Assembly (NCBI GenBank): GCA_963693365.1
Contig: CAVNZM010000006.1
Span: 5,869,264-5,933,263 of the forward strand
Source: Amoebidium appalachense
Lineage: Eukaryota; Protista; Ichthyosporea
Direction of reading: 5' to 3'
Length of the DNA: 64,000 bases
A program made the position numbers and the translations under genes. Positions 526 to 50,445 of this stretch are shown piece by piece; within the stretch, counting starts at the first letter, position 1, and every line of letters begins with the position of its first letter. The notes under the pieces were generated by a model that saw only the letters and a program-made list of their open reading frames with translations, had not been told where the DNA came from and made no database searches.

Positions 526-2698
<2,173 letters not shown>

Positions 2699-3286: not shown

Positions 3287-3321
<35 letters not shown>

Positions 3322-3647
3322 ACCCACCACCACCAACCGTTACTTCTTCCTTTGCTTTTGACCAGCGCTTCAAATTTTGATTGGGGCTGAGTTATCACGC
3401 ACAATACATGTGTTCGTGTGTGCGTCTGCAACTTGTGTGCCGTGGCATTTGGGGTGTGTTAATGTGTCAGAATGGGAGGCATGCATGACTGCATGGGCAG
3501 AGTGTGCACATGCATTATACATTCGGCACTGCTGATCATTACGTGTTGTGTCCCACATGTGTGTTTTACTAAATGTCGGCAGTGCGTGTGTGCGTGCGTG
3601 CGCGTGTGCGTGCGTGCGTGCGTGTGTGCGTGTATTTGTGTGTGTAT

Positions 3648-3732
3648 CACAGTGCTTGAAAATCCTTTTATATACGCTGTAGGTTGGCACACAGTGCTTG
3701 AAAATCCTTTTATATACGCTGTAGGTTGGCAC
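3648..3732. repeat. Two-copy ~42-bp tandem duplication
   Basis: CACAGTGCTTGAAAATCCTTTTATATACGCTGTAGGTTGGCAC occurs twice head-to-tail. Confidence 0.85.
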
Positions 3733-4802
3733 AAACGTGCATGAGCCTTCCGTGACATGTGTCTGTGTATCTTGGATGTGTGTGGGTGTTTCTGTTGCTG
3801 GTGATGAATGTATGATGCATTGTTTGCGCCGGACATATTAATATTTGGGGGGGGGGGGGGGGGGGGATTAGGGTGGAGGATCGCAGAGAGCGAGAAAGAG
3901 GTGGGGGAGGAGGGGGGGGGGGGGGGGGGGGGGGAGGGGGGATTCGAGGGGATTAAGAGAGAAAAAAAGGATCGAGAAAGTGCGCGTATGTGCGGGTCCG
4001 ACGTCGACGTCAGTTGATTTATGTGCCACCACGCAAGTAGTATGGCCCTGCGGCAGTCTGTGAGCGTGGCCGTGTATGTGTGTGTGTGTATGTGTGTGCC
4101 TGCAGCTGTATGCATGTGTGTGTGTGTGTGCGTGTGTGTGTGTGTGTGTGTATGTGTGTGTGCTAATATTACGTGCTATCTGCTTATAATATGCGTGTGT
4201 CTGTGTGTGTGTGTTCCATGTGTGTGTGCGCGCGCGTGCCGGTCACCTCGCCGCGCGTGCTTGCGTGCGTGCTTAAGTTAGTGCGCACGCGCGGTTGTGT
4301 GTGTGTGCGCGCGGGCGTGTCTGAGCATGTGTGTGACATTTTTGACCGGTGCACGTGTTAACTTGCTAACTCCAACGTAGTGTAGTGGTGAACCCGGTAT
4401 GGCCATAAGATTCTCTCGCGAGTGCACCGTAGCCAACTATGAAAATGAATGCTCGTGAAGCTGGTTGCGGTTGGGAAGGGGTTTGACAGGGTTGAGGAAG
4501 ATCGTGTGGGGAATAACAAGCCGTGGGCGGTGGGGCAGGCGGTGGAGAGGGGGGGGGGGGGGGATGGGAATGGGATGCCTAGAGTTACTACAGAAGTTTT
4601 TCTAAACTTGCATCTTTATTCATCAGATACATACAATCGCACGATATGCAGCATTGTATCATAAGGATCAAAGGTTTCGTCTAATTTTCCTTAAAGGTAT
4701 ATAGATGCGCATGCATGCAAAACTATAGCATATGTCATTTACAGTAAGGCTGCTACATATATGGTTTTTTTTTTTCGTTCACTGCCGTTTTTTACTCTTC
4801 TG

Positions 4803-5681
4803 TTACACGCGTTTTTGACTAAATTTCACACCGGTAGCACGTCCAATACTCTGCAAAATGCTTGCCCACAGACCACTGCCATACTTCTGCGCCTCCGTGC
4901 CGGCCTGAGGGCGCTGCAACCAAATAGTGGATACTGTCTTATATGCTATCGCCAGGATCATCTGGCTGACATATGCAACAGCACAAACAATGGTCCCAAC
5001 CTGACCATACAGCAGGGAAATGGTGATGGATGTGCCCCACACCAGTCCGAGAGACGCGGCCCGGTTGAAATCTTCACCTGCCGCTATCAGCAGAACAGAG
5101 ACCAACCGTGTGAAAGGTTGAGCAAGGATCAGTGCCAAGCTTTTGGCAAGGCGAGAAGTGGAGGGATACTCGGTGGAAGCAACGATTTCACTATGGTCAT
5201 ACGTGTAGAAGAGGGTGAGGACGAACAGGTTCATCACGGCACCAACTCCATACGGACGCACGTGGCGGGACATCATCCACCCGACAGGAATGGCGACAAA
5301 CAGAAGGCACGAGTAGAGCAGCTTGAGTGCAGGAAGTGGCAGCCGTATTGTGTGCGAGTCCAAAAACACTTGGGTGATCAACACGACGAGGGTGGCGTAG
5401 TAGGTCACGTAGTGGAAGTAGTGAAGTGGGAAGATGGAGCGATATTTGATGGCGTTGATACGCCCGCGGTACTTGAGGGTGAGGGCGACTGCTGGTAAGG
5501 ACAGTGGCATGTAGAAAAACAGCACGAGTTTGAGTATTGGGATGTACCCATCATACACATCGTGCATATGCATAGACAGGTTAGGTAGGTGTGAGCTCGC
5601 AGAGCCTTGTGGGATATCGATGGCCATGGTGGTGGTGTTAGCCAGCGCCATGTCGTAAAAACTAACTGCTTCGAAAGCCAT
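4803..5681 (-). CDS. Intronless 292-aa polytopic (~7 TM) membrane protein of unknown family
   Basis: Uninterrupted ORF in non-repetitive sequence. About seven hydrophobic segments and N-terminal N-glycosylation sequons (NTT, NLS). No recognised family motif. Confidence 0.7.
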   Translation of the reverse strand: MAFEAVSFYDMALANTTTMAIDIPQGSASSHLPNLSMHMHDVYDGYIPILKLVLFFYMPLSLPAVALTLKYRGRINAIKYRSIFPLHYFHYVTYYATLVVLITQVFLDSHTIRLPLPALKLLYSCLLFVAIPVGWMMSRHVRPYGVGAVMNLFVLTLFYTYDHSEIVASTEYPSTSRLAKSLALILAQPFTRLVSVLLIAAGEDFNRAASLGLVWGTSITISLLYGQVGTIVCAVAYVSQMILAIAYKTVSTIWLQRPQAGTEAQKYGSGLWASILQSIGRATGVKFSQKRV

Positions 5682-6406
5682 GATGATGTATGTGTTGGTG
5701 TATTGAATTAATCAAATAGTTTTGATTTGCCAAGATTATATATGCGTACTAATATTAGCTGTTCTTTCACTGTGAAGGTTTCTCGCGGCTGGAGCCACTG
5801 TGACTGGATTCCTTACTGAAACTGGTTGTTTGTGATTCTGACTCTGGCGGCGGATTTATACCTTTTGCATACACCCAGCTAGCCAATCGGCTACGCGGTA
5901 ATCAGTAATCTGGCGTGATTGGCTGAAAAAGATGGTCATCCAATCAAAATATTTGAAAAAAATTCTAGAACTAGATCTATATAATCTGACTGGTGTAAGG
6001 GAATCTTGGTCAGATGACAGCACTGCACGCGTCTCAGTGCGAGATGAGGGTAGGCTGTAGTGCACCATGGCATACTGTACAATAATATGTGACCACAGAG
6101 CTTATTCTAAATAAAAGCCTATCTATTGCATTTTCTTTTGCACCTACACCGTATTCTTAGACACGTAATGTTGGGCGAGCATTCGGCATGTAGGCGTGGC
6201 GTGAAGGACCGGGTTTATTCTTCGACGCGGTCCAGTACGTACTACTACGTACCTGCCAGCCGACGTCTCCATGTGATCTGACTAGTGTAGTACCATGACA
6301 TCTACAACACAAGTCATGCTTTTTCGTGTGAAGGCGGGACCCCTTGATAAATATCTTTGGAGAGTGTGGCGAGGGACGAGCCGAGGGGTGCCGGGCATAT
6401 ATGCAT

Positions 6407-6706
6407 GTATACGTATGACCATGGACTAGAGGCTTGCAGACATGGAGCGGGCAAAAAAACAAAAAAAGAAATCAAAAGCCCAAAACGAAAACTAGAGCAA
6501 ATGATCAAGCAATGGGGGGCTAAAAAGGAGGGGGGGGGGGGGGGGGGGGGGGGTTAGCTGTATACGTATGACCATGGACTAGAGGCTTGCAGACATGGAG
6601 CGGGCAAAAAAACAAAAAAAGAAATCAAAAGCCCAAAACGAAAACTAGAGCAAATGATCAAGCAATGGGGGGCTAAAAAGGAGGGGGGGGGGGGGGGGGT
6701 TAGCTA
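6407..6706. repeat. Two-copy ~150-bp tandem duplication ending in a poly-G tract
   Basis: GTATACGTATGACCATGGACTAGAGG...AAAAGGAG(G)nTTAGCT is repeated at about 6407-6559 and 6560-6706, differing essentially only in poly-G length. Confidence 0.9.
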
Positions 6707-7290
6707 TTAGCTAGGTGTAATAAAGCACGAAGTTGATATTATCGATATAAACGAAAAGTTGCACCTTGAACAGAATAAGCAGTCTGAGCCTTGCCAAACA
6801 GAGAACTCAAACATGCATAGAGGCTATGTATGGACATTCGTGGTGGTGGGCCACATGGGAGTGGGGGGAGGAAGGGGCGGGCGGGGGGGGGGGGGGGGAT
6901 GAGAAGAAAGCCTCGGAAATTTTCCTAGGAGGGGAGGGGGAGGGGCACCGGGGGACGCCGGGGCCCGAGAAACCCCTTTCTCCACAACCGGTCAGTTTTC
7001 CTTTAATTGCCCGTTCGGCTATAGATGGCCAGGATCCTCCCATCCCCCCCCCCCCCACCCCCCCCCCCCCCCCCCCCCCCCCCCCTCTCTCTCTCCCTCC
7101 CTCCTCCCCCCTCCCCCCTCTCCCCCCCCCCCACCCCCCCCCCTCTTCCCCCCCCCATCCCACGTATGACTCATCCGTATACCATACCACAACTGCCCCC
7201 GCAGTGCGCTATTGCATGTAATTTGGAGACCGTAAGAAGCGGTACATGTTGTTGCTAGCATTGAGGAAATGGTGTGTACATCAATGGGTG

Positions 7291-7365
<75 letters not shown>

Positions 7366-7637
7366 GTGTGTGTGTGTGCACTCGCGCGCACGTTCGCGTG
7401 CGCTTGTTTGTGTGTTTGTGTTTCTGCGTGTAGATTTGTGTGCGTCTGTGTGTGCGTGACCGTGTGTGTGCGTGTGCGTGTGCGTGTGTGTGTGCACGTG
7501 TGCGCGCACGCGGGCGATGGGACTTGTGTATGTATTTCGGTCTGTCTCTCTTGCTAGCTCTCGCTGCTCGTGTGCGCGTGTGTGCGCGTGTGCGCATATG
7601 CGTGCGTATCAGTGTGTGTATATGTATCGTGGTGTGT

Positions 7638-8266
7638 ACAGTCGCACCATGTCCGGCTCCCGATCACATCAAAACCACATGTAATCGGTGATTAGGCTGC
7701 ATGATTCTGCAAATTCCGCATTAAGTCAACCAATAGGCACATTAGACCGCACCAGAACCCATAGAGATGACCAATCAGAGTAGACATTCCGCGCATTTTT
7801 GTCAGGTTAAAATTTAAGTAGCACAGGTCGCCACGAAAACTGGTCGGAAACACGTGAAAACGTGTTTTCTAGCTCCTCTAGTCCAACGGAGAACTCCTAG
7901 CACACCTAACAGCCGGGCCCAGAAAAACTCAAGCGGATAGAGGTACACGTTAGCTACAGGGGACACTAAAAGCCGTCCCCGTAGGCCGGCGGGCACGGGA
8001 GTTACGCGCCGGAAAGGAGCCCCCCCTTTTTTTTCCCTGCACTTGACACAAAACCAACGTTTCCTCTTTCAGTGGTAGTGACCTTTGTCTGGGGGGAAAA
8101 ACATTAACGGCACAGAATTCACACACACAGTAGCAGAGTAGAACGCGCACAGAGTAGCCGTATCCACAGATACCAGCATCCTGCACTCACCCTTTTCGCA
8201 CACACAAAGTCAACAACCATCTAGCAAATAAACGCTACCCAAAACATAGCTGCACCCACCCCTACC
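7638..8266 (+). promoter_or_regulatory. LINE 5' UTR with probable internal Pol II promoter
   Basis: Starts with a CAGT initiator-like motif and contains two CCAAT boxes (~7730, ~7771). Promoter function is inferred from other LINEs. Confidence 0.45.
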
Positions 8267-10630
8267 ATGGAAAACCACATGGAGCTAGACGGGGACACGT
8301 CCCTCACTGCAATATCCACCTTAAACCCACCCACACCCAATCACACGGATAGGGCAACCGAGTCGGTAGAAACCACACAACCGATGGGGGAAAGCATGGG
8401 GGTGGGAGCGAACCCTCATCATCCCCCGGGCTCTGGAGGAAACGAGCGCTTGTCGGGCAAAAGAGGAAAGGAGGAAACAGAGGAGATGGAGAGGTCTACC
8501 TCACGCAGGACGGACTATGCCATACCAGGTAAAACTAACGCCCCCACCCTTTCCATACTGTGTCCCCTGCCAGCAGACGACGGACACTCTGAAGCGGGCT
8601 GGTTGGCTCGGGTGTATGACTTCGTCAGCACCCAGAACCTAGCAAACAGGTACCTGGTGCACAACCGAAACCAACGGGGCATAGAGATCATGGTAGGCAC
8701 AGAAGCAGAGTGGGAGGCACTAGTCACAGCACTGGTGGGGGAGGGCATTTTACCTGCCCCCCCACCCCACCCCTCCATCCGCCCGAACCCCACACGGTAC
8801 ATGGTCCTAATCCCGAATAGAACGGTAGAAACGTGCAATTTTCCGAGGATAGGACGAGCAAGTGACGTGGCAACCGTGCTATATGCCATAGACCTTCACC
8901 CAGTGACCGTAACCTGGCTCCCCCCAAACCCCAACTTCCGTATCGCCAGGGAGCACTGGGCGTATGAGGGTAATTATGAGGTGGTTTTTCCGGACGACGA
9001 ACACCATAGGAAACGCATAATAAATCTCCGAGAACACTTTAGGGTCAACCGGACCTCTCTAGTGGAGGAAACATACATGACGGCGGCCCCTGCAATGCAC
9101 AGGCACCGGGCCTGGGCTATCACCACACCCGGCTTAAACGAGGACACACGCCCCCCCCATCTCGAGGGGTACGATCATCGCCTCTATGAGAACACCAACC
9201 CCACCCCCCGTGTGGTGGACACCCCTCCCGAGTGGCCCCAGGCCCGACCCTTTCCGACACAGGAGGGGGGGGGGGAGGAGTCAGAGGCAGTTCTGTTGCT
9301 AATCCCCATCCCACAGTCTCACATGTGTGGGTTGTGTTGGGAGCAATCCCACAAACTAACAGACACAGAGTGCCCGTTTGTTCAGTGCCTAACCTGTCGG
9401 GAGGTGGGGCACGAACCGGATGAGTGCCCCAAAAACCGCACCAGCTGTCCGTACTGTAACCGGCCGTTACACGTACACGGAAACCCCAGTAACCCCATCG
9501 CCACATGCCTGCAACGCCGCCGAAACTGCGGTAACTGTGGGGAACTGGGCCACCCCGCATATAAATGCCAACGGAAACCCCTTTTCGCACCGGGTATTAT
9601 CGTGTTGGTGGGCTTGAGTAGTCTAGACCCACCTGACGACTCTTTCTTCGCCACCGTGATTGAGTGGCGGGACTATGTACACGTCCAGGCACTCCGCCAG
9701 GCACTCACGTACTCCGGCCTTGGCCCCCCCGGGGAGGGGGCCACCCGGGAGGGTAGAGCCGGCAGAGCCCCAGAGGTGAATAAGTGTAGGGTCACAGGGC
9801 ACCACTTCATCACCATGCCCATCCCCGTAAGCCACACGGACTACCCATACCTCCGGGACCACCCGGAGGGAATACTTCTGTCGTTTAATACCGGGGCACC
9901 AAGCCCCCGCGAATACACAGTACGTGCCCGCCTCACCACCGTGGACAGGGCGACCGTGCTCCTCGACCACCCGCGGCTAGGGCAGAGCACACATCCCACA
10001 GACAACACACCACCACTCGAGGCCCCAGACGAAGACGACCAATCATTGGCCTCCGCGCCGTCGCACCAGCCCTACCAGGCCCCGTCCCCACCTCCGCCGG
10101 TGTCGCCCACAGGGGACCCCGTGGCGGACCTGACGGCTCGAGTAAACCGGCTCGAACTACAGTTGGCCAGCCAGGGGGCCACCATACACAACGTGCACCG
10201 TGAGGTGCAGGATACGACTGCCCAGCTGAGGGGTATGGAGCAGTCGATGGTTAGCATGCTCGAACGGCTAGGGGACCGCCTTGCCCTCACACTGGAAGCC
10301 CGTTTGGGCGGGGCTAGGGGGGGGGAGGGGGAGGGGGGAGAGCACTCTACCCCAGAGACCCGAGACCCCCAAGCCACCGAGCCATTGAGGCCCACAGAGG
10401 CACAACACCCCAACAGCGGCGCCCCCCCCAACCAAGGCGGGGGCCCCCAGGGGCCCCCTCACAACGCCAACCCACACAGCCCACACGCCCATCCACACCA
10501 CACAGGTCCTCGGTTAACTCGACACGGGGAACTGACCAAGGTGCCCGTCCCCCATCGCATGGGGACGGGCAGGCATAATGCCGACCCCATCCCCCCCCGC
10601 CCGGACACCCGGCGCCGGCAAAGGGGGTAG
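8267..10630 (+). CDS. LINE ORF1, gag-like nucleic-acid-binding protein (787 aa)
   Basis: CCHC knuckles CLTCREVGHEPDEC and CGNCGELGHPAYKC, plus variants CGLCWEQSHKLTDTEC and CPYCNRPLH...C. Heptad-like segment VADLTARVNRLELQL...MLERL. Lies directly upstream of, and overlaps, ORF2. Confidence 0.9.
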   Translation: MENHMELDGDTSLTAISTLNPPTPNHTDRATESVETTQPMGESMGVGANPHHPPGSGGNERLSGKRGKEETEEMERSTSRRTDYAIPGKTNAPTLSILCPLPADDGHSEAGWLARVYDFVSTQNLANRYLVHNRNQRGIEIMVGTEAEWEALVTALVGEGILPAPPPHPSIRPNPTRYMVLIPNRTVETCNFPRIGRASDVATVLYAIDLHPVTVTWLPPNPNFRIAREHWAYEGNYEVVFPDDEHHRKRIINLREHFRVNRTSLVEETYMTAAPAMHRHRAWAITTPGLNEDTRPPHLEGYDHRLYENTNPTPRVVDTPPEWPQARPFPTQEGGGEESEAVLLLIPIPQSHMCGLCWEQSHKLTDTECPFVQCLTCREVGHEPDECPKNRTSCPYCNRPLHVHGNPSNPIATCLQRRRNCGNCGELGHPAYKCQRKPLFAPGIIVLVGLSSLDPPDDSFFATVIEWRDYVHVQALRQALTYSGLGPPGEGATREGRAGRAPEVNKCRVTGHHFITMPIPVSHTDYPYLRDHPEGILLSFNTGAPSPREYTVRARLTTVDRATVLLDHPRLGQSTHPTDNTPPLEAPDEDDQSLASAPSHQPYQAPSPPPPVSPTGDPVADLTARVNRLELQLASQGATIHNVHREVQDTTAQLRGMEQSMVSMLERLGDRLALTLEARLGGARGGEGEGGEHSTPETRDPQATEPLRPTEAQHPNSGAPPNQGGGPQGPPHNANPHSPHAHPHHTGPRLTRHGELTKVPVPHRMGTGRHNADPIPPRPDTRRRQRG

Positions 10631-12259
10631 CGCCCGACACCACACAAACACTCGGCACGGCGCAAAGTCCGGGTCCAGAGGCCACAGACATGATCCACCA
10701 TTGGAGAACACAGCCCTGGAAGCACTTGAAGGGGAGCTAGTCTCGCCCATCAACCACGCAAATTTACCACCAGCCAAACCACACAGCCACCTTCGGATTG
10801 GAACTTTAAACCTGGCCGGACCTACCACTCGTACCGGCCAGGACAAGATCGTCGAGGCAGCCAGGTGGGCTGCCTTTGCAGACATGGACGTAGTCATTCT
10901 GACGGAGACCGGGACCACCCCGGGCTCCTTCACACGCACAAAGTTTTCCATTCGAAACGAAGGTATCCCCATGCGTGCCACGTATGTATGCCCACCAGCC
11001 ACCACCACTGGACACACACACACAACACTCTCTGCCTCAGAGGCCGGTATCCCGGTGGCAGAGAGCTCGTCCAATGACCAAACCACACCGTCACTAGCCC
11101 AGGAGGAAACACGATTCCGCTACACGGGGGTGGTGATACTTACAAACGAAACGTGGTTTAGACACCAAGGAAAACCACATAGCAAAAATGCACGAATGCT
11201 AGCTATTCCATATCACACAAAACGGCACACAACGTGGGTGATAGGACTTTATCAACACACGAATGCAACACAGGGAAACGTCAGACAGGCCCGTCGACTC
11301 ACCTCACAGGTAGCCAGATTTCTCACCTCCCTCCCGGCCCCCAACGACACCACTGTCATCGTGGCCGGGGATTTCAACGAGGTGTGCCACCCTACTCTGG
11401 ACAGGGCACGGCCCGAAACCGGCCCCAGTTCAGCACAGGCAATGCCCACAGGACTCGTGCCCGGGCTGCTCCACGAGCTGATGGACGCCCATCTACTCAT
11501 AGACAGCTACCGAGCCGAACACCCCACCACCAGGGAATATACGTACCACAGCGGTCCCCACCGCTCACGCATCGACTACGTATACATCCCGGCGGCGTTA
11601 CGCCCAGCACTGGTCTCAGCCTCCGTCACGGAATTACCGGATCTTCACACCGACCACCACCTGGCCTGGTGCGAAACTGGGCCCCATCCTAACCTGCCGG
11701 GCCAGGGACCAGGGCCAACCCGAAACCAACCCACACCGAGACTCCAGCTGAAACCGAACACCACACAGGAGGACTGGGCACGTTTTACCACCGGCACGGA
11801 GGCAGCCTTCACGTCCCCCCCAACCACCACCCCTACCCAGGCGGAGGTGGAAGGGAGATGGGAGTACATGGCCGCCACCATTCTCTCGGTGGCAAAAACC
11901 ACAGTGGGCCGGACCAAGAGCAAACCAGAGAAGTCCACGTCAAAACCGACGAAGGTCTTCCCGGAGGACAACGAGCACGCGGAGCTACACCGGCTCCTCA
12001 ATGCAACGGACCGGGCGGCAAATCCACAGGGTTTCTGGGAGAGGGCCAAGGAGCTGGCCGTCCAATATGGCTGGCCAGCACCCCCTCCCCCTCCGGAGCC
12101 CCCCCCACCGGTACCCCCAACAAGCAGTCCCATCATCCCACTGTACACAGCCGACCCCAACAACCCCCCGGGCATCCCCCCCACCCCCCAGGACACCCCC
12201 CCCCTCCCCCCCAGGCACACCCGTCCCAGACGGGGTGGTATCAGGAGGAGGGGGACCCC

Positions 12260-15200
12260 GGATCCACCCAGCAGCACCAACCCACACCCACTTTGCTGCA
12301 CCAGCCTGCCGCTGGCCCAGCAGGCAGCCCCAACAGGCAGGCCCAGCATGGGCCACCCAGTCGACAGCACCAACAGGAGCCACCAAGCCAGCAGCAGCAG
12401 CCTCAGGCTGAAGCCCCTGCCGGCAGCCCACAACGGCAGCCACAGCAGGGGCCACCCAGCCTGCAGGCCCTGCATGGGCCACCTAGCCAGCAGCAACCGA
12501 TCACACCTACACTGCAGCAGCTGCCTGCAGCAGCAGATTGCAGCCCCGGCCGGCCGGCCCAGCACGGGCCACCCAGCCGACAGCACCAACAGGAGCCACC
12601 AAGCCAGCAGCAGCAGCCGCAGGCTGCAGCCCCAGCAGGCAGCCCACACCGGCAGCCACAGCAGGGGCCACCCAGCCTGCAGGCCCTGCCAGGGCCACCC
12701 AGCCAGCAACAACCGACCACACCCACACTGCAGCAGCCGCCTGCAGCAGCAGCGTGCAGCCCCGGCCGGCAGGCCCAGCACGGGCCACCCAACCAACAGG
12801 AGCCACCCAGCCAGCAGCAGCAGCCTCAGGCTGAAGCCCCAGCAGGCAGCCCACACCGGCAGCCACAGCAGGGGCCACCCAGCCTGCAGGCCCTGCCAGG
12901 GTCACCCAGCCAGCAGCAACCGACCACACCCACAATGCAGCGGCGGCCTACAGTAGCAGATTGCAGCTCCGGCCGGCCGGCCCAACACGAGCCACCCAGC
13001 CGACAGCACAAACAGGAGCCACCAAGCCAGCAGCAGCAGCCAAAGGCTGCAGCCCCAGCAGGCAGCCCACACCGGCAGTCACAGCAGGGGCCACCCACCC
13101 TGCAGGCCCCGCCTGGGCCACCCAGCCAGCAGCAACCGACCACACCCACACTGCACCAGCTGCCTGCGGCAGCAGATTGCAGCCCCGGCCGGACGGCCCA
13201 GCACGGGCCACCCAGCCGACAGCACGAACAGGAGCCACCAAGCCAGCAGCAGCAGCCGCAGGCTGCAGACCCTGCCGGCAGCCCACACCGGCAGCCACAG
13301 CAGGGGCCACCCAGCCTGCAGGCCCTGCCAGAGCCACCCAACCAGCAGCAACCGACCCCACCCACACTGCAGCAGCTGCCTGCAGCAGCAGTTTGCAGCC
13401 CCGGCCGGCCGGCCCAGCACGGCCCACCCAGCCGACAGTACCAACAGGAGCCACCACGCCAGCAGCAGGAGCCTCAGGTTGCAGCCCTAGCAGGCAGCCC
13501 ACACCGGCAGCCACCGCAGGGGCCACCCAGCCTGCAGGGCCTGCATGGGCCACCCGGCCAGCAGCAACAAACCACACCCACCCGGCAGCAACTGCCTGCA
13601 GCAGCAGATTGCAGCCCCACCCAGCAGCACCAACCCACACCCACTTTGCTGCATCGGCCTGCCGCTGCCCCAGCAGACAGCCCCGGCCGGCAGGACCAGC
13701 ATGGGCCACCCAGTCGCCAGCACCAACAGGAGCCACCAAGCCAGCAACAGCAGCCTCAGGCTGCAGCCCCCGCCAGCAGCCCACAACAGGGGCCACCCAG
13801 CCTGAAGGCCCTGCATGGGCCACCCAGCCAGCAGCAACCGATCACATCTACACTGCAGCAGCTGCCTGCAGCAGCAGATTGCAGCCCCGGCCGGCCGGCC
13901 CAGCACGGGCCACCCAGCCGACAGTACAAACAGGAGCCACCAAGCCAGCAGCAGCCGCCGCAGGCTGTAGCCCCAGCAGGCAGCCCTCACCGGCAGCCAC
14001 AGCAGGGGCCACCCAGCCTGCAGGCCCTGCCAGGGCCACCCAGCCAGCAACAACCGACCACACCTACACTGCAGCAGCTGCCTGCAGCGGCGGCGTGCAG
14101 CCCCGGCCGGCCGGCCCAGCACGGGCCACCCAGCCGACAGCACCAACAGGAGCCACCCCGCCAGCAACAGCAGCCTCAGGCTGCAGACCCAGCAGGCAGC
14201 CCACACCTGCAGCCACAGCAGGGGCCACCCAGCCTGCAGGCCCTGCCAGAACAACCCAGCCAGCAGCAACCGACCACACCCACACGGCAGCAGCAGCAGG
14301 TAGCAGACTGCAACCCCAGCCGGCAGGCCCAAGACGGGCCATCCAGCCGACAGCACCGACAGGAGCCGCCAAACCAGCAGCAGCAGCCTCAGGCGGCAGC
14401 CCCAGCAGGCAGCCCACACCGGCAGCCTCAGCAGGGGCCACCCAGCCTGCAGGCCCTGCCAGGGCCACCCAGCCAGCAACAACCGACCACACCCACACTG
14501 CAGCAGCCGCCTGCAGCAGCAGCGTGCAGCCCCGGCCGGCAGGCCCAGCACGGGCCACCCAACCAACAGGAGCCACCCAGCCAGCAGCAGCAGCCTCAGG
14601 CTGTAGCCCCAGCAGGCAGCCCACACCGGCAGCCACAGCAGGGGCCACCCAGCCTGCAGGCCCTGCCAGGGTCACCCAGCCAGCAGCAACCGACCACACC
14701 CACAATGCAGCGGCGGCCTACAGTAGCAGATTGCAGCCCCGGCCGGCCGGCCCAGCACGGGCCACCCAGCCGACAGTACCAACAGGAGCCACCAAGCCAG
14801 CAGCAGCCGCCGCAGGCTGTAGCCCCAGCAGGCAGCCCTCACCGGCAGCCACAGCAGGGGCCACCCAGCCTGCAGGCCCTGCCAGGGCCACCCAGCCAGC
14901 AACAACCGACCACACCTACACTGCAGCAGCTGCCTGCAGCGGCGGCGTGCAGCCCCGGCCGGCCGGCCCAGCACGGGCCACCCAGCCGACAGCACCAACA
15001 GGAGCCACCCCGCCAGCAACAGCAGCCTCAGGCTGCAGACCCAGCAGGCAGCCCACACCTGCAGCCACAGCAGGGGCCACCCAGCCTGCAGGCCCTGCCA
15101 GAACAACCCAGCCAGCAGCAACCGACCACACCCACACGGCAGCAGCAGCAGGTAGCAGACTGCAACCCCAGCCGGCAGGCCCAGGACGGGCCATCCAGCC

Positions 15201-16720
15201 GACAGCACCGACAGGAGCCGCCAAACCAGCAGCAGCAGCCTCAGGCGGCAGCCCCAGCAGGCAGCCCACACCGGCAGCCTCAGCAGGGGCCACCCAGCCT
15301 GCAGGCCCTGCCAGGGCCACCTGGCCGGCAACAACCGACCACACCCACACTGCAGCAGCTGCCTGCAGAAGCGGAGGGTAACCCCGGCCGGCAGGCCCAG
15401 CACGGGTCACCCAGCCGACAGCACCAGCAGGAGGCACCCAGCTGGCAGCAGCAGATTCAGGCTGTAGTCCCAACAAGCAGCCCACAACGGCAGCCACAGC
15501 AGGGGCCACCCAGCCTGCAGGCCCTGCCAGGGCCACCCAACCAGCAACAACCGACCACACCCACACCGCAGCAGCCGCCTGCAGCAGCGACGGGCAGCTC
15601 CGGCCGGCAGGCCCAGCACGGGCCACCCAGCCGACAGCACCAACAGGAGCCACCCAGTCAGCAGCAGCAGCCTCAGGCTGCAGCCTCAGCGGGCAGCCCA
15701 CACCGGCAGCCACAGCAAGGGCCACCCAGCCTGCAGGCCCTGCCAGGGTCACCCAGCCAGCAGCAAACGACCACACCCACACTGCAGTGGCTGCCTGCAG
15801 CAGCAGATTGCAGCCCCGGCCGGCCGGCCCAGCGCGGGCCACCCAGCCGACGGCACAAACAGGAGCCACCAAGCGAGCAGCAGCAGCCACAGGCTGCAGC
15901 CCCAGCAGGCAGCCCACACCGGCAGTCACAGCAGGGGCCACCCAGCCTGCAGGCCCCGCCAAGGCCACCCAGCCAGCAGCAACCGACCACACCCCCACTG
16001 CACCAGCTGCCGCATGATCGCAGCCCCGGCCGGCCGGCCCAGCACGGGCCACCCAGCCGACAGCACGAACAGGAGCCTCCAAGCCAGCAGCAGCAGCCTC
16101 AGGCTGCAGCCCCAGCAGGCAGCCCACACCGGCAGCCACAGCAGGGGCCACCCAGCCAGCAGCAACCGACCCCACCCACACTGCAGCAGCTGCCTGCAGC
16201 AGCAGTGTGCAGCCCCGGCCGGCCGGCCCAGCACGGCCCCCCCAGCCGACAGTACCAACAGGAGCCACCAAGCCAGCAGCAGCAGCCTCAGGCTGCAGCC
16301 CTAGCAGGCAGCCCACACCGGCAGCCACAGCAGGGGCCGCCCAGCCTGCAGGCCCTGCATGGGCTACCCGGCCAGCAGCAACAAATCACACCCACACTGC
16401 AGCAGCTGCATGCAGCAGCAGATTGCAGCCCCGGCCGGCAGGCCCAGCACGGGCCACCCAGCCGACAGCACCAACAGGAGCAACCAAGCCAGCAGCAGCA
16501 GCCGCAGGCTGAAGCCCAAGCAGGCAGCCCACACCGGCAGCCAAAGCAGGGGCCACCCCGCCTGCAGACCCTGCCAGGGCCACCCACGGGCAACCAACAG
16601 CTACAGACCACACCCACGCAGCCGCAACGGCCCACAGCAGCAGAGTGCAACCCTGGCCAGCAGGCGCGGCACGGGTCACCCACCCTGCAGCAGCACCCCA
16701 CCCCCCCAGCAGCCCACCTG
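12260..16720 (+). repeat. Coding tandem array of about 20 x 216-bp (72-aa) Gln/Pro/Ala-rich units inside LINE ORF2
   Basis: Unit is approximately HGPPSRQHQQEPPSQQQQPQAAAPAGSPHRQPQQGPPSLQALPGPPSQQQPTTPTLQQLPAAADCSPGRPAQ. A single frame (11858-16924) is open throughout. Higher-order ~852-bp duplication (13921 vs 14773). Confidence 0.95.
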
Positions 16721-19700
16721 TCTCAGACAGGGAGGCAGTGGGAGGAGTGGGAGGCAACCATGCGGGAGCAACTACAACTATACAGGTCCCAACTCCGAAG
16801 GAAACGGCAAAAACTCCTTTGGTTACGGGCAACAGCAGCAGCAGAAGCACGGTGCAAGCGTATGGTGGACGAACTCCGGCGAGCACTAAGCAGCATTTTA
16901 GACCGGGGGAGTGTGAACGTCTAGGCTGCGTTAGTCAAGCACGTCACCCCAACGGGCACTGAGTACCTCACGGAGTGGGCTGACACGGAGCCCGTCATTC
17001 GTGAAACTTATCACCGGTGGACGGCCCGCAGGAACCCACACATCGAGGAGATGCTCGCCGACCCAATGTGGGCCGACATCTATCGACCGATCCCCCCCGA
17101 AGACTCCCCATTAGGGTCTATAATGCACCCGGCCACCCACGACGAGCTCCAACAGATCGTCCAAAGCCGACAGGGGGGGAAGGCCCCCGGCCCAACGGAA
17201 ATCCAGTACGAATACTTCCAACACCTGGGGCCAAAGGGGCTAGCATGGCTCCTACATATCATCAACGGATGTCTGGCCACGGGGACCACACCGAGGTCAT
17301 GGCTGCACCACACCATCCATCCCCTACCGAAAGGGGAATGGGAAGGTGACTTCGACAAAACCCGACCGATAGCACTCTTGGAAACGGCACGGAAGCTGCT
17401 AGAATCGGTCATCAACCAGCGCCTACTCTCGATCTTCCGGCAGTACCCCACCCTCCTCCCGGGGGGGAATTTTGGGTTCGTGCCGGGCCCGGGTATCGAC
17501 GGGGCGCTGGCTATCATCCGAGAGACGATAGAGGATGCCATAGACCACGACCAGGAACTATGGATCGTCCAACAGGACATTAAGAGGGCATATGACACGG
17601 TGTCTTGGCCCTCGGTGGAACTGGGGCTCACCCGCCTGGGCACAGACCCCCAGCTAATCACCCTCCTCCGGCACATGTGGCACAGTCGTACGGCCACGGT
17701 GTGCACAGACCAGGGGCACACTGAGTCTTTCCCTGTTGAAAACGGCCTGGCCCAAGGGGCTGTCCTCTCCCCCATTCTGTGGATTATATTCTACGATCCA
17801 GTTTTAACAGCCATCAAAAGGCACGGCAAGGGGTACACTTTCCACCTACCCCCACAGACACAGCACCACACACCGGCACAAACACCCCCGTGTGTGACGT
17901 CTGTAGCTTTCGCCGACGACACAACATGGTTTGGCCCCAACAAGGAGAGCATCCAGCAAACTCTCGATTTATCTGCCCCCTTTTTTTATTACCATGACTT
18001 GGAACCACACCCAGACAAGTTTTCAGTCCTCGCCCGTGGTACCCCAACACGGGCAACAGTGGCCCCCATGCAGTACCGCAAATCCCCGGGAGCACCACCC
18101 CTACCCATTCAGATCGAGCTCCCCGATGCAAACATCAGAGTGCTAGGGGTCAACATCACCCTCCAACGACACACCCGGCCCAACGATGGGAAGGCCATGC
18201 AGCTGACATTACGGGCCACCACCATACTAGCCCGTAAAATGCTGGCACCCAGCCAAGTGATCTACGTAGCCAACAGTGTGGTGGCCCCGGCCATCCTCTT
18301 CCTCCTCAAAGGGTCAGTCATCAGCAACACCACCATGCAGGCAATCGACAGCAAGTGGAGAGACCTACTCCGTCGGAAGTGTGGTTTCCACCGGAGCACC
18401 CCGTCCGGGCTGCTACACCATCCCACTCTAGGGGGACTGGCCAGCATCGTCGAATCAGCAGCCAGCACCATGGTTACGGAGCTGTGTGCCCTGCTGGAAA
18501 CACCAGGACCAGCAGGGGACGTGGTCCGGTACCGAGCCTGGCAGCAGCAACACGCGACAGGCCTACCCTACCCACCCCTGCAAGCACCCCCAGCCAAACT
18601 TTACAGGCTAGGGGGAAAGCAGCTCCACAACTATTGGGCCCATATCACGGGGATCCTTCACGAGCGGCACCTGAGTCTTGGGGAAACCCCTCCCCAAAAA
18701 ACACAAGCACCCCCACCCCACCCCCCCCCTCCCCCCAAGGAGAAGGAGGGGAAGCAGCAACAACAACCAGCACCCCTATCAACACCGTTTTCCCGGACCA
18801 CACCTTTGCGGCCCACATCGGCCCCCACACACACCCCCGTCAACTCTACACGGTGGAGGACACCATGGTACGGCCGGGGGTGTTCCGGGCGTTCCCCGAA
18901 CTGCCCCACCCCCCAGACCTACTACACCCGGGAGCTACACAGTGGTACAGGTCCATCATCAAGGGGGCCATCCCCATCGCAGACAAACTACGGCCAGCAC
19001 CCAGACCACACACCCACCACACCATTGACCTCGTGCCAAACCACCCCGTCGGTGCATTCGTGGTGGAAATAGTCAAGAACGGGCAATACGAACTCAGCCA
19101 GGTGGTGGCCCACACCACCCACAACGGGGAGGCTTGGGTCAAAATAGCCCATCTACGGGACAACACAGAGGAGGAGGGGCTGAGATGGCACCGACCCACG
19201 TGGAACGACCCACATGGAACAGCCCATTTCCGCTTTTGCCCTGGTGACTGCAAATACGGCCACTCCCCATGGAACCTAGCCTACACCCCGGCCACCCTCT
19301 CCCCCAACCCCGGGTACGCAGACGGAGAGGGGGAAGGGTTAGACACGGAGCCAGAATCGGAGTCGACGGGGCCCAGCGACGACTCCGACGACTCAGAGGA
19401 CTCTAACACCGACAGCACCAACAGCAAATACGAGCCCCCTGAGCCCCCAGCCGATAATCACACCCACAACAAGCAGTGTGTGGGGTGGACCCGTGCTGTG
19501 GAGGTGATACGGGCAGACCCCTACGTGGCCTTCAAGACCCGAATCACCACCCACATGGTAGTCCCGAAGTACCACAAGGACTTCATCAACACCGACAGTA
19601 TCGACATCTACCAAGTCATCGCACTGAAGGATGGCTCCGATCCGGCCGAGCAGTGGAGGAAGATACACCATTTCCGGCGGCATCTTCCCCCCCACCAACA

Positions 19701-20846
19701 GGCATCACCCCAGATGCTCCACCTGCAAGCCAACGAGGAAGCCACACCCTTACCGGGGGACCTCCCCGGCCCACCCCCCCCCCAGCAGCCACCACCGGTA
19801 GGGTCACCACCAGGACACAAGTGCACGGCCCACCCGGCTGACCTGCCGAGCCCACCCACTCCCCGTAGGCTCACCTACACCGACTTGGTGCCCCAGGCCA
19901 CCTATGACGAGTGGCAGCAGCAAATCACCCTGATCCCCCCAGACCAACCGATCACCGTTTATACGGACGGCAGCCTCATCCACCCGGGCAGGAGGATAGC
20001 CCAGGCCGGAGCCGGGGCGGCACTGGATACCCCGGACCGGAAAGCACCTCCAGTGACGGCCAAGACCAGGCTCCATACGGCCCTATCATCCACCCAAGCC
20101 GAACTCACAGGGGTACTACTAGCCCTCCTGCTCACCCCCACCACCACCCCCATCCACATCAAGCTCGATAACCTCGGAGTAGTCGACCGATGGACGGCAA
20201 ATATAGACCCCACCACACCCCCTCGACGCAAGCTAAAGTTCCCCCACATAGTGGAATGGGCTCACGTACGAGACCAACTCTCTCTCCGGCAACCAGGCTC
20301 TGTACAGGTATCGTGGGTGAAGGGGCACCAATCCAACACCAAACGGTACGGTCAACGGAATAACGAGGCAGACAAGGCAGCCAATGCAGGAAGAGTCCTC
20401 CCCCCTCCCCCCCCCCCCTACCTCCGGCCCCGGGGGGGGGGAAATACTTCCTACGACTACAAGGCCACCGTATCCCCGGCAACATTCCCGGTACACTGAA
20501 CCGGTTGAACAAGGACTTCCTCACCGACATGGCCGGCAAGACCAAGGCTATGTCCATACTAGCCGACCCCAGACTGCTCCCAGCCGAACGGAACCCCCTC
20601 AAGCTCAACAAGGGGCCCACACAGGCAACCATCGGGGCAGTCAGAGGAAACACTCGTAGCCTGTCCCTGGCCATGGGCACCCTGCCTACCATGGCACGGC
20701 TACACCGAGATCACCCCACCGTCGTTACACAGCCCACATGCCCCCGGTGCAGCCAGCACCCTGAGACCACCACCCACCTCTGGGCCTGCCCGGCCCATGC
20801 CGGGGAAGTCCCCACCCTGACCACCGCCATCACAGCCTGCATCCAC

Positions 20847-21611
20847 TGTTGGACATTGTGTTCATAGAAGCTAGTTCTAGTGCACGTTGTTCCTTCTGTA
20901 AGTCAGAAATGATTGCATCTTGTGAGGCCAACCTCTGCTCCAGTAGTTGGACTAGTTGCTGCAACTGTAAGTTGTCAGACATAGTGTAGTGTATGATGGG
21001 TAACTAGTCTATGTGTTTTGTGCACTGGAAACGACAGTAGAAAAGTGTAAATCAAACGTTCTGCTTCCCATGTTTGTGACATGGGAGGCACTGCTTTATA
21101 TAGTCGTTGGCCACCTCATGGTGGCCTCGTGTGCACCCTGGTGGTGGGCCATGTACAGCATGGCCGAAAAGAGAGCACAATGAAAACAAGTCGTTAAAGA
21201 TATAAAAGTTAACTGTGCACGTTGAGTGGCTAGTTAACTTGCACTAAAGCACACAAATAAACGTGTTTAACACACCAATTGCAGTTAAACGTAAATCTTG
21301 CTTCACACAACTAAAAATATTCTGAGAATATCCGGGAATAAAGCACACTACCACTCTAAGAATAGAATCCTGTGGCAAATATAGACATGACATCATCTGA
21401 ACCGGGAATATTAATTAATGAGCACAATTAGCACGTTGCTAGTGAAGCTCGTCATTGGTACAGTTTTGGCTCAAACATATAACTACCATATATGAATATG
21501 ACCGTAAACAAAAGCTCTATGCACTCGAGTGAGTGTTGAAACAGTTATTCAATTGCTCAGAAACTTTCTCTAACAGACATTGCTAGCCGGGAGTACCAGT
21601 GTACTCCAACA
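20847..21611 (-). mobile_element. Solo LTR (765 bp, copia-like termini) nested in LINE ORF2
   Basis: Termini TGTTGG...CCAACA and 5-bp TSD TCCAC (20842-20846, 21612-21616). AT-richer than the host LINE. Removal restores the frame TAITACIH|NVLHTRHP. TATATAAAG on the minus strand (~21094-21102) suggests the orientation. Confidence 0.9.
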
Positions 21612-22438
21612 TCCACAACGTCCTGCACACTCGTCATCCAAACACCCCCACGGCACAGCACCACCATACGGCAGCCACGGTGGTAGACCAATGTGCATGG
21701 ATAAACTGGATAGGAGGCAACGGTGACCCACCTGACCCCGAAGACACCAAGTGGGTCGAACGGGATTCTGCCCACGATCGGCGGGCCCACTACTTGCAGC
21801 CACCGGCACCACCAAGACCACCACCCGGGCCATCTTAGGAAAAATCACAGTAGAGTTGCAATCCTTTTTCTTTGCAAAAATTTGGCACCCACGGAACACA
21901 ACACTCCCCCCCACCCACCCTAAAATGCAAAAACACCACCATATACCCACCACCCGTAGAAAGAAAAGTATGGCTCTCCAAAAACCCAAAAAACCAACAA
22001 ATACACCCCCCACACACACCCGGCCGGCCTGTTCTGAATGCCGGAACACCCACAGACCCGGTGTGCCCTGTAAAACCCACCTTTTAGTCCACAAAAACAT
22101 CGCCACAACATACGTACACCAACACATAATGTTAGGCAGCAACCCCCCACCACCACCACCACCACACCCCATCATCCACCCATACCCACCGTAAATATTA
22201 TACACAACACCTAGGACTTCCCAATACTGTAGATCGACCAATGAGAGCCCTCGGTTAACGTTTATTGCTAGGTTTTTGAATGGAGGGGAGGACTGGAGCC
22301 TCCTGCCGGCGTGGCTGGGGTAGTAGCCCTGGGCAAAGTGTGTACTTATAGTTAGGTTGTGAAGGATGGTTTAGCTTAGCTGAACTCATAGATAGCACCT
22401 TAACTAGTGTACTGTCGGTGCTGTGTGGTAGACGGTAG

Positions 22439-22471
22439 TTTCCCTAGAGGGCCTGAAAAGGCCTCCGGGAA
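22439..22471 (+). other. 3'-terminal GNRA-capped stem-loop of the LINE
   Basis: TTCCC..GAG.GCCT-GAAA-AGGC-CTC.GGGAA lies immediately before the poly-A tail. Confidence 0.55.
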
Positions 22472-22692
22472 CAAAACGTGATAAAAAAAAAAAAAAAAAA
22501 AAAAAAAAATGTATCGTGGTGTGTTTATGTGTATCGTAGGCACACGTGTGTGTGTGTCAGGTTTTGCGTGTAGTGTGTGTGTGTGGTGTATTGATCAGTA
22601 TGTGTGTGTGTGTATGTATGTGTGTGTGTGTGTGTTTGTGTGTGTGTGCGTGCACATAATAAATGTGTGTATGCGTTTGTATGCTTATTTGT

Positions 22693-22734
<42 letters not shown>

Positions 22735-24973
22735 GTGTGTGTATCACCGTGCTGGCGTGTGCGTGTGTGCGTCTGTGTGCATCTCTCTGCGCGTGCGTGC
22801 GACGTTGCGCGCGCGCGTGTGTGTACACGTGTGTGCACACGTGTCATTGTGTGTGCGTGCGAACTTGCGTGCGTGCGTGCGTACATGCGTGTGTGTTTGT
22901 GTGTGTGTGTGTGGGTTTGTGTGTTTATGTGTGCGTGTGTGTGTCCTACTTGTGCGTGCATTTGTTTATGCTGCATGTGCATGCGTGTGTGCGCCCATGA
23001 CGCACACACGCACAAGCAGCTGAAGCATATGCCCCTACAAAGTACTACTAGCTAGAGTGTGGCTCAAGTTGACCCACTAAATAGCCTATTTTGCTATGAA
23101 ATGATGTGGATGTGGTTAGAACCATGAACGAATTGCTTCTTAGAATTATAATATATATAGGGCCTGAATTGCCCAGGCTTACATCCAAGTCTGCCGTATC
23201 CGAGCATAAAACACGCTCTGCCTTAACACATGTGTGCATATGCATGTGAATAGTCAGGGATGTGCATACATGTGAAGCTTACCAAGCCCAAAAACCGGAT
23301 CAGTTCCAATTCGTTGTTTAGGCTACAAAAGGTCATTATGAAAGCAACCAACTGGCAGCGAAAACGCAACAAACAAGAGCTGTTACAGATGCGGGAAGTT
23401 GCAACTTTGAAGTAAGTTCCGGTCACATGACCCGGCCGCGGGGCCGCCGGCGCCGGGTTTGTTTACGTTCAACGGCGCGTCATGATTGGCTTACCTAAAA
23501 GTATATTCGCTGCCTTGAACCAATGAGAATGGATAATTGAAGACTAGTCACTCTGAGGTGCTGTCTCCCTGCGGCCTCTCTTCTTCTTCTTCTTTTTTTT
23601 TTTTTTTTTTTTTTTTTTAAGTTGCCGCAGGCGACAGTCACTAGACAATGTTTGATCATGACGTCATGGCATTTATTTATTTACTTTTGGTTGGCTTAAA
23701 TATACGCAAACCTGTTAAATTAAGTAAACAAATCGTAAACAATAACATGATAAACTGTCCAGATATTTTAACATGCCAATCAACATGCTAGTTATAAAAT
23801 TTGAAAATTGTTAAAGCTATTGGATTGATGAATATAAACTATATAACAGATCAAGGACCACCGAGCGATTTGATTCGTGAATACAGCTTCATAAACCCGG
23901 CGGGAGACGTCCCGCAGCGTAGTAGGGCCACCACTTACGTAAGCCAGCGGATACAAAGCCTTGGCTAGTTGAAGACCGTTTTATTGCTTTATCAGTCGTA
24001 CACCAAATTCCTAACAAACCCGTCATTTTCTTTCGTAGAAAATATTGAAAGTAGTATTGGCATAGACTATTTTCTTCATTTTTTGCACAACAGAGTCTGA
24101 AATAAACGAAAACCGAACTCTAAACAGATACTTTCTGGGAAAATGCTCTGAGGATGAATGGTTGAGGCAGGAGCACGAATTGCTTCGCTTCAAGTATTGC
24201 CACATCTGATTGGGTAATGCTAATGTTTCAGAAATAGATGACTCTTCCTAAACTCTGTACTTAAATATATTGACATTTCCGGACCGAAAGCCATTAAACG
24301 TTTCTTGTTTCTGAGGTTGCTAAAAACATGAAAGAGCCCAAAAAGGGCTACAAGTTTTATATATCTTGTTAGAATAATTTTATATAACTCAGTTATAGCA
24401 GTTGCAGATATGATTTATGTTACTTTAGTTAAAGTGCACGTTTTTGTTAGAGCTCGTAAATTTCTAATAAACCTTTTGAGATCACGAAAGACCGTCGAAA
24501 TAAAAGTTTGTTGGGAACCGCTCAGTGCTACGGTGTTTCACGGTTTCAACGGTACACAAGGTTTGGTGCACAAAGTAACACCCGCACACACACGCGGGTT
24601 TGATTTTAAGCATACTGTGAGTACGCTCGTGTGCGTTGTTTTCGTAGTGTCTTCATAGTGTGCTGTTTCAAAGCATTTGTATCTTTGTGACTTCTGCTTT
24701 TATTCTAGTGCAAAACAAAGGAGGACAAGGAGGTTTAGAGCAAAACATAGCACCCTTCTCTCAGGTGTTGCATGCAACCTCTGCTTGTTTCACATGGTGC
24801 ACTATAGGGTTGGTGATTTAAACGCTAAAACGTCCAAAAGTTGTAGAGACCATAACCTCTGATAGCTCTGGGTTGGTTAAGACTGGAAAACACGATTGCA
24901 CAAGCAATTGGAACTCATTTTTGGCAACACCGAAAGAATCCTTGCTTGGGAGTGACGGAGAACACACGAGAGA

Positions 24974-39777
<14,804 letters not shown>

Positions 39778-50264: not shown

Positions 50265-50284
50265 GTGTGTGAGTGTGTGAGTGT

Positions 50285-50372
<88 letters not shown>

Positions 50373-50409
50373 ACATGCCAGCTGATACCGAGTGTCCCGA
50401 GGGGAGCCC

Positions 50410-50445
<36 letters not shown>

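What the first reader, a model, noticed from the sequence alone, without database searches (positions are those of the whole stretch)
12213..16740. Giant in-frame Gln/Pro tandem array (~1500 aa) between endonuclease and RT of a LINE
Seen: about 20 diverged 72-aa units with internal length variants, yet one frame stays open for over 4.6 kb and runs straight into the conserved pre-RT linker (WEEWEATMREQL...). The array is bracketed by related sequences (AHPSQTG at ~12215 and AHLSQTG at ~16712), suggesting it grew from the linker itself. It also has an ~852-bp higher-order repeat. Known: the EN-RT linker is normally only about 200-250 aa. Inference: ORF2p may carry a huge disordered, prolamin/prion-like domain (a condensate scaffold or long tether for the nuclease), making a roughly 3600-aa protein. 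I know of no described equivalent. Caveat: CAG-rich sequence is naturally stop-poor, and another frame is open for 2.4 kb.
Basis: partly seen in the sequence, partly recalled or inferred. Interest (0 to 1): 0.85.

Follow-up and report, generated by a model that had tools for sequence, protein, structure and literature searches.

The report
Giant coding repeat inside LINE enzyme
A 14.9-kb copy-and-paste retrotransposon carries twenty tandem 72-amino-acid glutamine/proline repeats with no stop codons between its nuclease and reverse transcriptase, which would make its enzyme about 3,600 residues long by looping a predicted disordered 1,500-residue chain out of a spot where its closest relatives have under 20 residues; this copy is broken, but the repeat is likely a trait of the whole family.

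Summary
The array is real: 20 units of about 216 bp (12341-16663) inside a full-length LINE (15-bp target-site duplication, poly(A), ORF1, EN, RT, RNase H). This copy is not one ORF. EN is out of frame with the array at a C7 run (12206-12212), a TAG lies 61 codons past WEEW, three more homopolymer frameshifts follow, and a solo-LTR-like insertion interrupts the C-terminus. Contigs of 4 of 4 public runs lack the TAG, and one bridges unit 20 to RT without gaps, so the family reads through. The EN-side junction is not bridged. The array has 0 stops where 4-5 are expected (P 0.002-0.006) and 7 of 7 in-frame indels, but no amino-acid constraint. It replaces a 15-19-residue loop that maps to the apex of the ORF2p tower hairpin; EN-RT spacing is 1,842 aa against at most 512 in 82 relatives. 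Best reading: a coding minisatellite, grown from a linker duplication, that loops out of ORF2p and is held in frame by selection. A nuclease tether is unlikely by geometry, and the composition does not fit a prion-like scaffold. No described equivalent was found. New variant of a known kind.

The parts
7623..7637 (+). 5' copy of a perfect 15-bp target-site duplication, in a GT-rich tract
8267..10630 (+). ORF1, 787 aa, intact, two CX2CX4HX4C zinc knuckles
   Evidence: no Pfam hit
10578..12212 (+). ORF2 start (only ATG in frame at 10536-10800), APE endonuclease (Pfam PF03372 at about 10803-11621), ascending arm of the tower, and a Pro-rich loop from 12072
12206..12212 (+). C7 run at the end of the poly-C stretch where the EN frame and the array frame part by one base in this assembly; not bridged by any contig shown
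12201..12281 (+). Diverged left duplicate of the linker segment (AHPSQTG...)
12263..12340 (+). Partial repeat unit, also present as the 66-nt insert at the end of unit 6
12341..16663 (+). Twenty tandem 216-bp (72-aa) Gln/Pro units; no stop codon, all length changes multiples of three
13860..15330 (+). Recent internal duplication at 852-bp offset (units 8-10 and 12-14)
16696..16921 (+). Functional linker copy (AHLSQTG, WEEW at 16739), homologous to the long descending tower helix
16922..16924 (+). TAG in this copy; contigs of 4 of 4 runs read TCG
16925..18740 (+). RT (Pfam PF00078 at about 17351-18154) and thumb/wrist region; frameshift in poly-C near 18710-18740
19948..20391 (+). RNase H domain; frameshift in poly-C/G near 20400-20440
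20673..20786 (+). C-terminal zinc-binding motif (zf-RVT, below Pfam cut-off)
20847..21611 (.). Nested 765-bp TG...CA insertion with a 5-bp duplication (solo-LTR-like); contigs of other copies skip it
21617..22194 (+). End of ORF2 after the nested insertion, with one more homopolymer frameshift at 21761; stop at 22192-22194
22483..22524 (+). Poly(A) tail (27 nt) and the 3' copy of the target-site duplication (22510-22524)

Best explanation
The array is a stop-free coding minisatellite inside ORF2 of a LINE family that likely grew, after a local duplication of linker DNA, in the loop predicted to form the tip of the ORF2p 'tower' hairpin, so it would loop out as a predicted disordered 1,500-residue chain while the nuclease stays near the reverse transcriptase. 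Steps: (1) About 80 nt of linker were duplicated (similarity shown; order inferred). (2) A 216-bp unit between the duplicates expanded by slippage, template switching or unequal exchange (unit relationships shown; process inferred). (3) A LINE copy mostly mobilises its own RNA with its own ORF2p (established for L1; recalled), so copies with a stop or frameshift in the array died and only open arrays spread (stop and indel depletion shown). (4) The amino-acid sequence is free to drift (shown), so the array acts as a tolerated passenger or bulk spacer rather than a sequence-specific domain. (5) The copy in this window is young but disabled.
For: Selection for an open frame: 0 distinct stops against 4.05-4.78 expected from re-placing the 129 distinct substitutions (P 0.003-0.005, three context models, 5,000 permutations each). 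The other two + frames have 4 and 4 against 2.9-3.2 and 2.2-2.4 expected. P is 0.006 on 13 of the 20 units after dropping near-duplicates. Seven of 7 length events are multiples of three; the microhomology-aware null gives 0.001-0.04. No amino-acid constraint: synonymous fraction 0.30 against null 0.29 +/- 0.04. Family-level presence: contigs of 4 of 4 runs (4 studies, one possibly the source) hold array units. The TAG is absent from the covering contig in 4 of 4 runs, and one contig of X10 runs from unit 20 to 17715 with 0 gaps. Other copies exist: contigs skip the nested insertion in X10 and X11, and several different flanks follow the poly(A). Two other homopolymer frameshifts are read in frame by contigs (21761 in X1, X3 and one of two X11 contigs; 20406 in X11). 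Site: the WP-to-WxxW loop is 15-19 residues in the 4 closest relatives and about 1,555 here. In the model of relative P0106 it lies between helix 473-479 and the 47-residue helix 490-536. The profile alignment puts it at a gap near residue 333 of human ORF2p, inside the tower helices 301-370 (PMC10830420, passages). The array model has no secondary structure, pTM 0.12.
Against: No contig shown bridges the EN-to-array junction, so an in-frame join there is inferred, not shown. The X11 contig has 24 letters that do not fit just before 16739, so that sample may have another junction (letters not shown). A passenger of 4.5 kb should cost a LINE full-length insertions, and the flanking duplicates offer an easy way to lose it; yet the units are 11% diverged while the laid ORF2 contigs mostly differ from this copy by under 3%, so it has lasted many cycles, which points towards some benefit. 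No protein or translation evidence. The apex mapping rests on a 20-sequence model of a relative and a gapped profile alignment.
Confidence: 0.6

Rival explanations
1. The array is translated in frame and is useful: selection acts on its length and Gln/Pro disorder rather than its sequence. It would serve as an entropic brush that shields or solubilises the ribonucleoprotein, partitions it into granules, or keeps host restriction factors away from the tower.
For: It persists despite its length: units are 11% diverged on average, up to 19%, so it is much older than the present copies. It is still expanding (403-bp exact duplication). The summed contig depth at its unique left border matches that of EN (431 and 353 in X1, 2,710 and 2,730 in X3), a rough hint only that array-less copies are not common. 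The tower moves and contacts EN in human ORF2p (PMC10830420 and PMC7617806, passages).
Against: No amino-acid constraint and no avoidance of hydrophobic or aromatic changes (15 against 12.9 expected; 3 against 2.0). Aromatic residues are 0.5% and proline 23%. None of 82 relatives has anything like it.
Confidence: 0.25
2. EN and array-plus-RT are not one polypeptide in the family. The one-base offset in the poly-C stretch is real, and RT is reached by ribosomal frameshifting or separate initiation, giving a split ORF2 whose RT part has a long disordered N-terminus.
For: The assembly has the offset and no contig shown bridges it. Tower-base fragments of human ORF2p may complement in trans (PMC10830420, passages).
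Against: All four frameshifts in this copy lie in homopolymer runs, and two of the other three are read in frame by contigs. One X1 contig matches up to 12212 and leaves 7 letters unaligned after the C7 run, which fits a different run length. All six close relatives inspected have EN and RT in one ORF.
Confidence: 0.1
3. The array is a non-coding minisatellite, or an assembly expansion, peculiar to this dead copy, and the frame is open by chance because the sequence is CAG-rich.
For: This copy is broken. Short-read contigs cannot confirm that there are exactly 20 units, and the 852-bp duplication is nearly exact.
Against: The array frame has the most one-step routes to a stop (21 against 13 and 13) yet no stops. 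Units differ by up to 19%, which an assembler does not invent. Unit variants and both borders are in independent runs, and the array is joined to a stop-free RT there.
Confidence: 0.05

Closest known systems
Human LINE-1 ORF2p and its tower/linker domain (PDB 8SXT, 8UW3, 9HDR, 9K6I; PMC10830420, PMC7617806)
   Same: APE endonuclease, helical linker/tower, RT and C-terminal zinc motif in the same order; best PDB hit by profile (E 1.5e-87) and by fold of a relative (E 2.8e-28).
   Different: The human tower spans residues 240-440 with a short apex; here the apex holds about 1,550 residues. This element also has RNase H and a 787-aa zinc-knuckle ORF1.
Unnamed EN-RT-RNase H LINE group with P0001, P0002, P0106, P0111 and Glomeromycota (Rhizophagus, Geosiphon) elements
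   Same: 44-49% RT identity to the nearest members; the window groups with four of them at 99% SH-aLRT and with the Rhizophagus elements in a 97% group of a quick tree.
   Different: Their intact ORF2s are about 2,030-2,040 aa (P0001, P0002) with a 15-19-residue loop at this site; none of 82 measured relatives has EN-RT spacing above 512 aa.
X domain of Drosophila telomeric retrotransposon ORF2 (PMC13534243, passages, citing Casacuberta and Pardue 2003)
   Same: A glutamine-rich extra region in the ORF2 protein of a non-LTR element.
   Different: About 400 aa and C-terminal; here about 1,500 aa, between EN and RT, and built of 72-aa tandem units.
Large non-LTR ORFs with a Josephin domain (Haematococcus P0023, P0024, P0028; Dualen/RandI name recalled)
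   Same: About 3,000-aa non-LTR proteins exist.
   Different: Their size does not come from the EN-RT linker: spacing is 358 aa in P0024. They fall in another branch.
Satellites and minisatellites derived from transposable elements (review PMC9659126, passages)
   Same: Tandem repeats born from TE sequence, some from LINE ORF2.
   Different: The passages seen list them as satellite DNA; none is described there as kept in frame inside a working ORF2.

Membership tests
APE-type non-LTR retrotransposon (LINE) | APE endonuclease upstream of a non-LTR RT | tested here: met
   PF03372 E 6.6e-10 and PF00078 E 1.7e-22; best PDB hit L1 ORF2p
APE-type non-LTR retrotransposon (LINE) | Poly(A) tail and target-site duplication | tested here: met
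   A27 at 22483-22509; identical 15-mers at 7623 and 22510
APE-type non-LTR retrotransposon (LINE) | ORF1 with nucleic-acid-binding motifs | tested here: met
   Two CCHC knuckles in a 787-aa ORF
APE-type non-LTR retrotransposon (LINE) | Dispersed multi-copy family | tested here: met
   Contigs skipping the nested insertion, different flanks after poly(A), variant contigs
Autonomous (active) copy | Intact ORF2 in this copy | tested here: not met
   TAG, four frameshifts and a nested insertion
L1 clade in the strict sense | RT groups with L1 elements | tested here: inconclusive
   Quick tree (careful search unfinished) puts it apart from the Capsaspora and plant-element group, but the backbone is weak (71); no human L1 row in the tree
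Proto1 clade (name recalled) | RT groups with Proto1 references; RNase H present | not testable with these tools
   RNase H is present; no reference sequences were available, and the one paper listed was not read
Coding minisatellite | Head-to-tail units kept in one reading frame | tested here: met
Coding minisatellite | Unit number varies among copies or strains | not testable with these tools
   No genome held; short-read contigs do not span the array
Prion-like domain | Q/N-rich, proline-poor, with aromatic stickers (criteria recalled) | tested here: not met
   Q+N 25%, P 23%, aromatic 8 of 1,505, longest Q run 4; PLAAC not run
Drosophila telomeric-element X domain | Gln-rich region of about 400 aa at the ORF2 C-terminus | tested here: not met
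   Position and size differ

The most novel reading that the evidence does not exclude
An active LINE family makes a single ORF2p of about 3,600 residues in which a self-amplifying, 1,500-residue Gln/Pro brush sprouts from the tip of the tower and is kept because its bulk is needed: a retrotransposon that evolved its own giant disordered shield or granule-targeting module by repeat expansion inside the enzyme.
Probability: 0.25. Interest if true: 0.85.

Novelty: new variant of a known kind. Interest (0 to 1): 0.62.

Why it matters
The tower of LINE ORF2p was first seen in structures in 2023-2025. It is dispensable for RT activity but needed for retrotransposition, and its role is open (PMC10830420, passages). 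A natural family that appears to keep jumping with 1,500 extra residues at the tower apex is a ready-made test of what the tower does, of whether the apex is a permissive fusion site in LINE proteins, and of how much disordered bulk and RNA length target-primed reverse transcription tolerates. It also shows a minisatellite evolving under frame-only selection inside a selfish element. Short-read assemblies and protein databases would miss such a structure: no family member turned up in four protein searches.

Tried and rejected
No whole genome is held, so other copies could not be aligned. Protein searches for a family member found none: lengths 1,090-3,110, 1,301-4,141, the array-linker-RT junction at 157-501 aa (no hit), and all representatives (best identity 53% over a 197-aa fragment). 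An exact family pattern had 0 matches in metagenome contigs; viral contigs gave no relative; a profile scan of metagenome contigs gave 3 distant loci at 25-31% that were not examined. Expression: no RNA holder listed; X10 is only guessed to be RNA and contig depth cannot show RNA level, so it is not used. X11 has no cover at 16600-16738; a hole proves nothing. ESM Atlas gave only scores of 0.84 or less to unrelated low-complexity clusters, a blank. The structural second look was filled by the EN domain and says nothing on the tower. The careful tree did not finish. Earlier findings: none. A guess that the host is a choanoflagellate with described LINEs found no support: the survey reports only two partial SLACS-like elements (PMC6875170, passages). 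The host was left unnamed. The nuclease-tether idea was rejected on geometry and the prion-like idea on composition. Literature: five searches for an equivalent (listings only) showed none. The library lacks most subscription journals and Repbase Reports, where such an element could be described. No supplements were opened.

Full report
Observation. The window holds a tandem array of 20 units at 12341-16663: 13 of 216 bp and 7 of 189-282 bp, preceded by a partial unit and followed by a degenerate end. In one + frame it encodes a 72-aa unit; over 1,505 codons Q is 24.5%, P 22.8% and A 11%. That frame has no stop in 12213-16740, while the other + frames have 11 and 6. Units differ by 11% on average and up to 19%. 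The two flanks share about 80 nt in the same frame (score 63; 500 shuffles give mean 24, maximum 41).

The element. The array lies in a full-length LINE at 7638-22509, bounded by identical 15-bp duplications and ending in A27. ORF1 (8267-10630, 787 aa) is intact with two CCHC knuckles. ORF2 has an APE endonuclease, RT, RNase H and a weak zf-RVT match. This copy is not one reading frame. EN is in a frame one base off from the array, with the switch in the poly-C stretch ending in C7 at 12206-12212. A TAG stands at 16922-16924. Further shifts lie in homopolymer runs near 18720, 20410 and 21761, and a 765-bp TG...CA insertion with a 5-bp duplication interrupts the C-terminus. Counting lengths only, the family ORF2 would be 3,615 aa.

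The family. No genome is held, so I laid contigs of public runs on the two flanks. Of 24 runs listed, 20 hold the stretch or part of it, from 6 named studies. On the left flank, 4 of 4 runs hold array units. On the right flank, the contig covering 16923 reads C in 4 of 4 runs, giving TCG rather than TAG, and one X10 contig runs from unit 20 to 17715 with no gap. Contigs drop rare variants, so the TAG is either private to this copy or an assembly error; either way the common form reads from array into RT. Other copies exist: contigs of X10 and X11 skip the nested insertion, and differing flanks follow the poly(A). Two of the three downstream frameshifts are read in frame by contigs (an extra G at 21761 in X1, X3 and one of two X11 contigs; two bases fewer at 20406 in X11); the one near 18720 is not bridged. 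The EN-side junction is not bridged either, and one X1 contig leaves 7 letters unaligned after the C7 run. An in-frame EN-array join is therefore likely but inferred. As a rough hint only, since depth is no copy number, summed depth at the array's unique left border matches EN depth in X1 and X3. Against a uniform family, the X11 contig has 24 letters that do not fit just before 16739. One of these runs may be the source of the assembly.

Selection. A frame-blind alignment gave 129 distinct substitutions and 7 length events (-9, +66, -12, -3, -6, -27, +6; the pairwise aligner split the -6 into -7 and +1). Re-placing the substitutions at random sites with the same base or context gives 4.05-4.78 stops in the array frame; none is seen (P 0.003-0.005). 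The other + frames have 4 and 4, about as expected. The array frame has the most one-step routes to a stop (21 against 13 and 13), so CAG richness works against the open frame, not for it. On 13 of the 20 units, dropping near-duplicates, P is 0.006. Seven in-frame indels of seven have probability 0.001-0.04 under microhomology-aware nulls. In contrast, the synonymous share is 0.30 against a null of 0.29 +/- 0.04, and changes to hydrophobic or aromatic residues are not avoided. Selection keeps the frame open but does not hold the sequence.

Where it sits. Among the 252 proteins fetched, 82 had both a measurable EN end and RT start. Their spacing has median 304 and maximum 512 aa, against 1,842 here. 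In the four closest relatives the loop between a WP motif and a WxxW motif is 15-19 residues; here it is about 1,555. An AlphaFold model of relative P0106 (mean pLDDT 74, 20 sequences) places that loop between helix 473-479 and a 47-residue helix 490-536, and the model matches human ORF2p best. The profile aligns this region to a gap near residue 333 of human ORF2p. Passages of PMC10830420 define tower helices at 301-370 as a flexible hairpin, dispensable for RT but needed for retrotransposition. Passages of PMC7617806 show EN docking on the long linker helix. An insertion at the apex would loop out and leave EN close to RT, so it is not a tether. A model of two units shows no secondary structure and pTM 0.12, consistent with disorder though the alignment is shallow. 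With 8 aromatic residues in 1,505 and 23% proline, it does not fit recalled prion-like or sticker-rich criteria.

Mechanism. Most likely (0.6): a linker duplication seeded a 216-bp coding minisatellite at a permissive loop, and cis-preference (recalled from L1) purged copies whose array broke ORF2, leaving a long, drifting, in-frame passenger. The main rival (0.25) is that its bulk is useful, since it is much older than the present copies and costs 4.5 kb of reverse transcription. A split ORF2 (0.1) and a private or artefactual array (0.05) are less likely.

Comparison and novelty. It is an APE-type LINE. A quick tree groups it with unnamed metagenomic elements and Glomeromycota elements, and clade assignment is inconclusive. 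The closest described parallel is the Gln-rich X domain of about 400 aa at the C-terminus of Drosophila telomeric-element ORF2 (PMC13534243, passages). A review of TE-derived satellites lists LINE ORF2-derived satellite DNA, with no in-frame case in the passages seen (PMC9659126). Five searches for an equivalent showed none in their listings, within a library that lacks most subscription journals and Repbase. Verdict: a real and unusual new variant of a known kind; interest 0.62.

Noticed in passing
window 20847-21611: Solo-LTR-like TG...CA element of 765 bp with a 5-bp duplication nested in ORF2; contig depth over it is several times that of the adjacent LINE sequence in all four runs, so it is likely a separate abundant family.
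   Followed up: partly
window 7280-7637 and 22524-22950: The LINE sits in a GT-rich microsatellite tract on both sides (score 0.38; 7.5% of 120 host bins reach 0.3). One insertion only, but it may hint at a target preference.
   Followed up: partly
window 11879-12106: X1 holds a second contig with 7 differences over this stretch of the tower region, suggesting a second subfamily.
   Followed up: no
window 10578-10630: The first in-frame ATG of ORF2 lies about 50 nt before the ORF1 stop, so the two ORFs overlap.
   Followed up: no
window 10930-11130: The endonuclease has a Thr/Ser-rich insertion of roughly 50 aa relative to its closest relatives.
   Followed up: no
window 18796-19620: Contigs of X10 and X11 skip 823 bases here, a possible internally deleted subfamily.
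   Followed up: no
window 6406-6699: Exact 153-bp tandem duplication (100% identity) ending in poly-G; a very recent duplication or an assembly artefact.
   Followed up: no
window 49794-50462: Weak integrase core (rve) match, E 8e-05: a fragment of another mobile element.
   Followed up: no
window 1172-2167 and 29309-30205: Host exons matching DUF455 (E 2e-22) and, weakly, an MFS transporter, amid CA and poly-C rich sequence.
   Followed up: no
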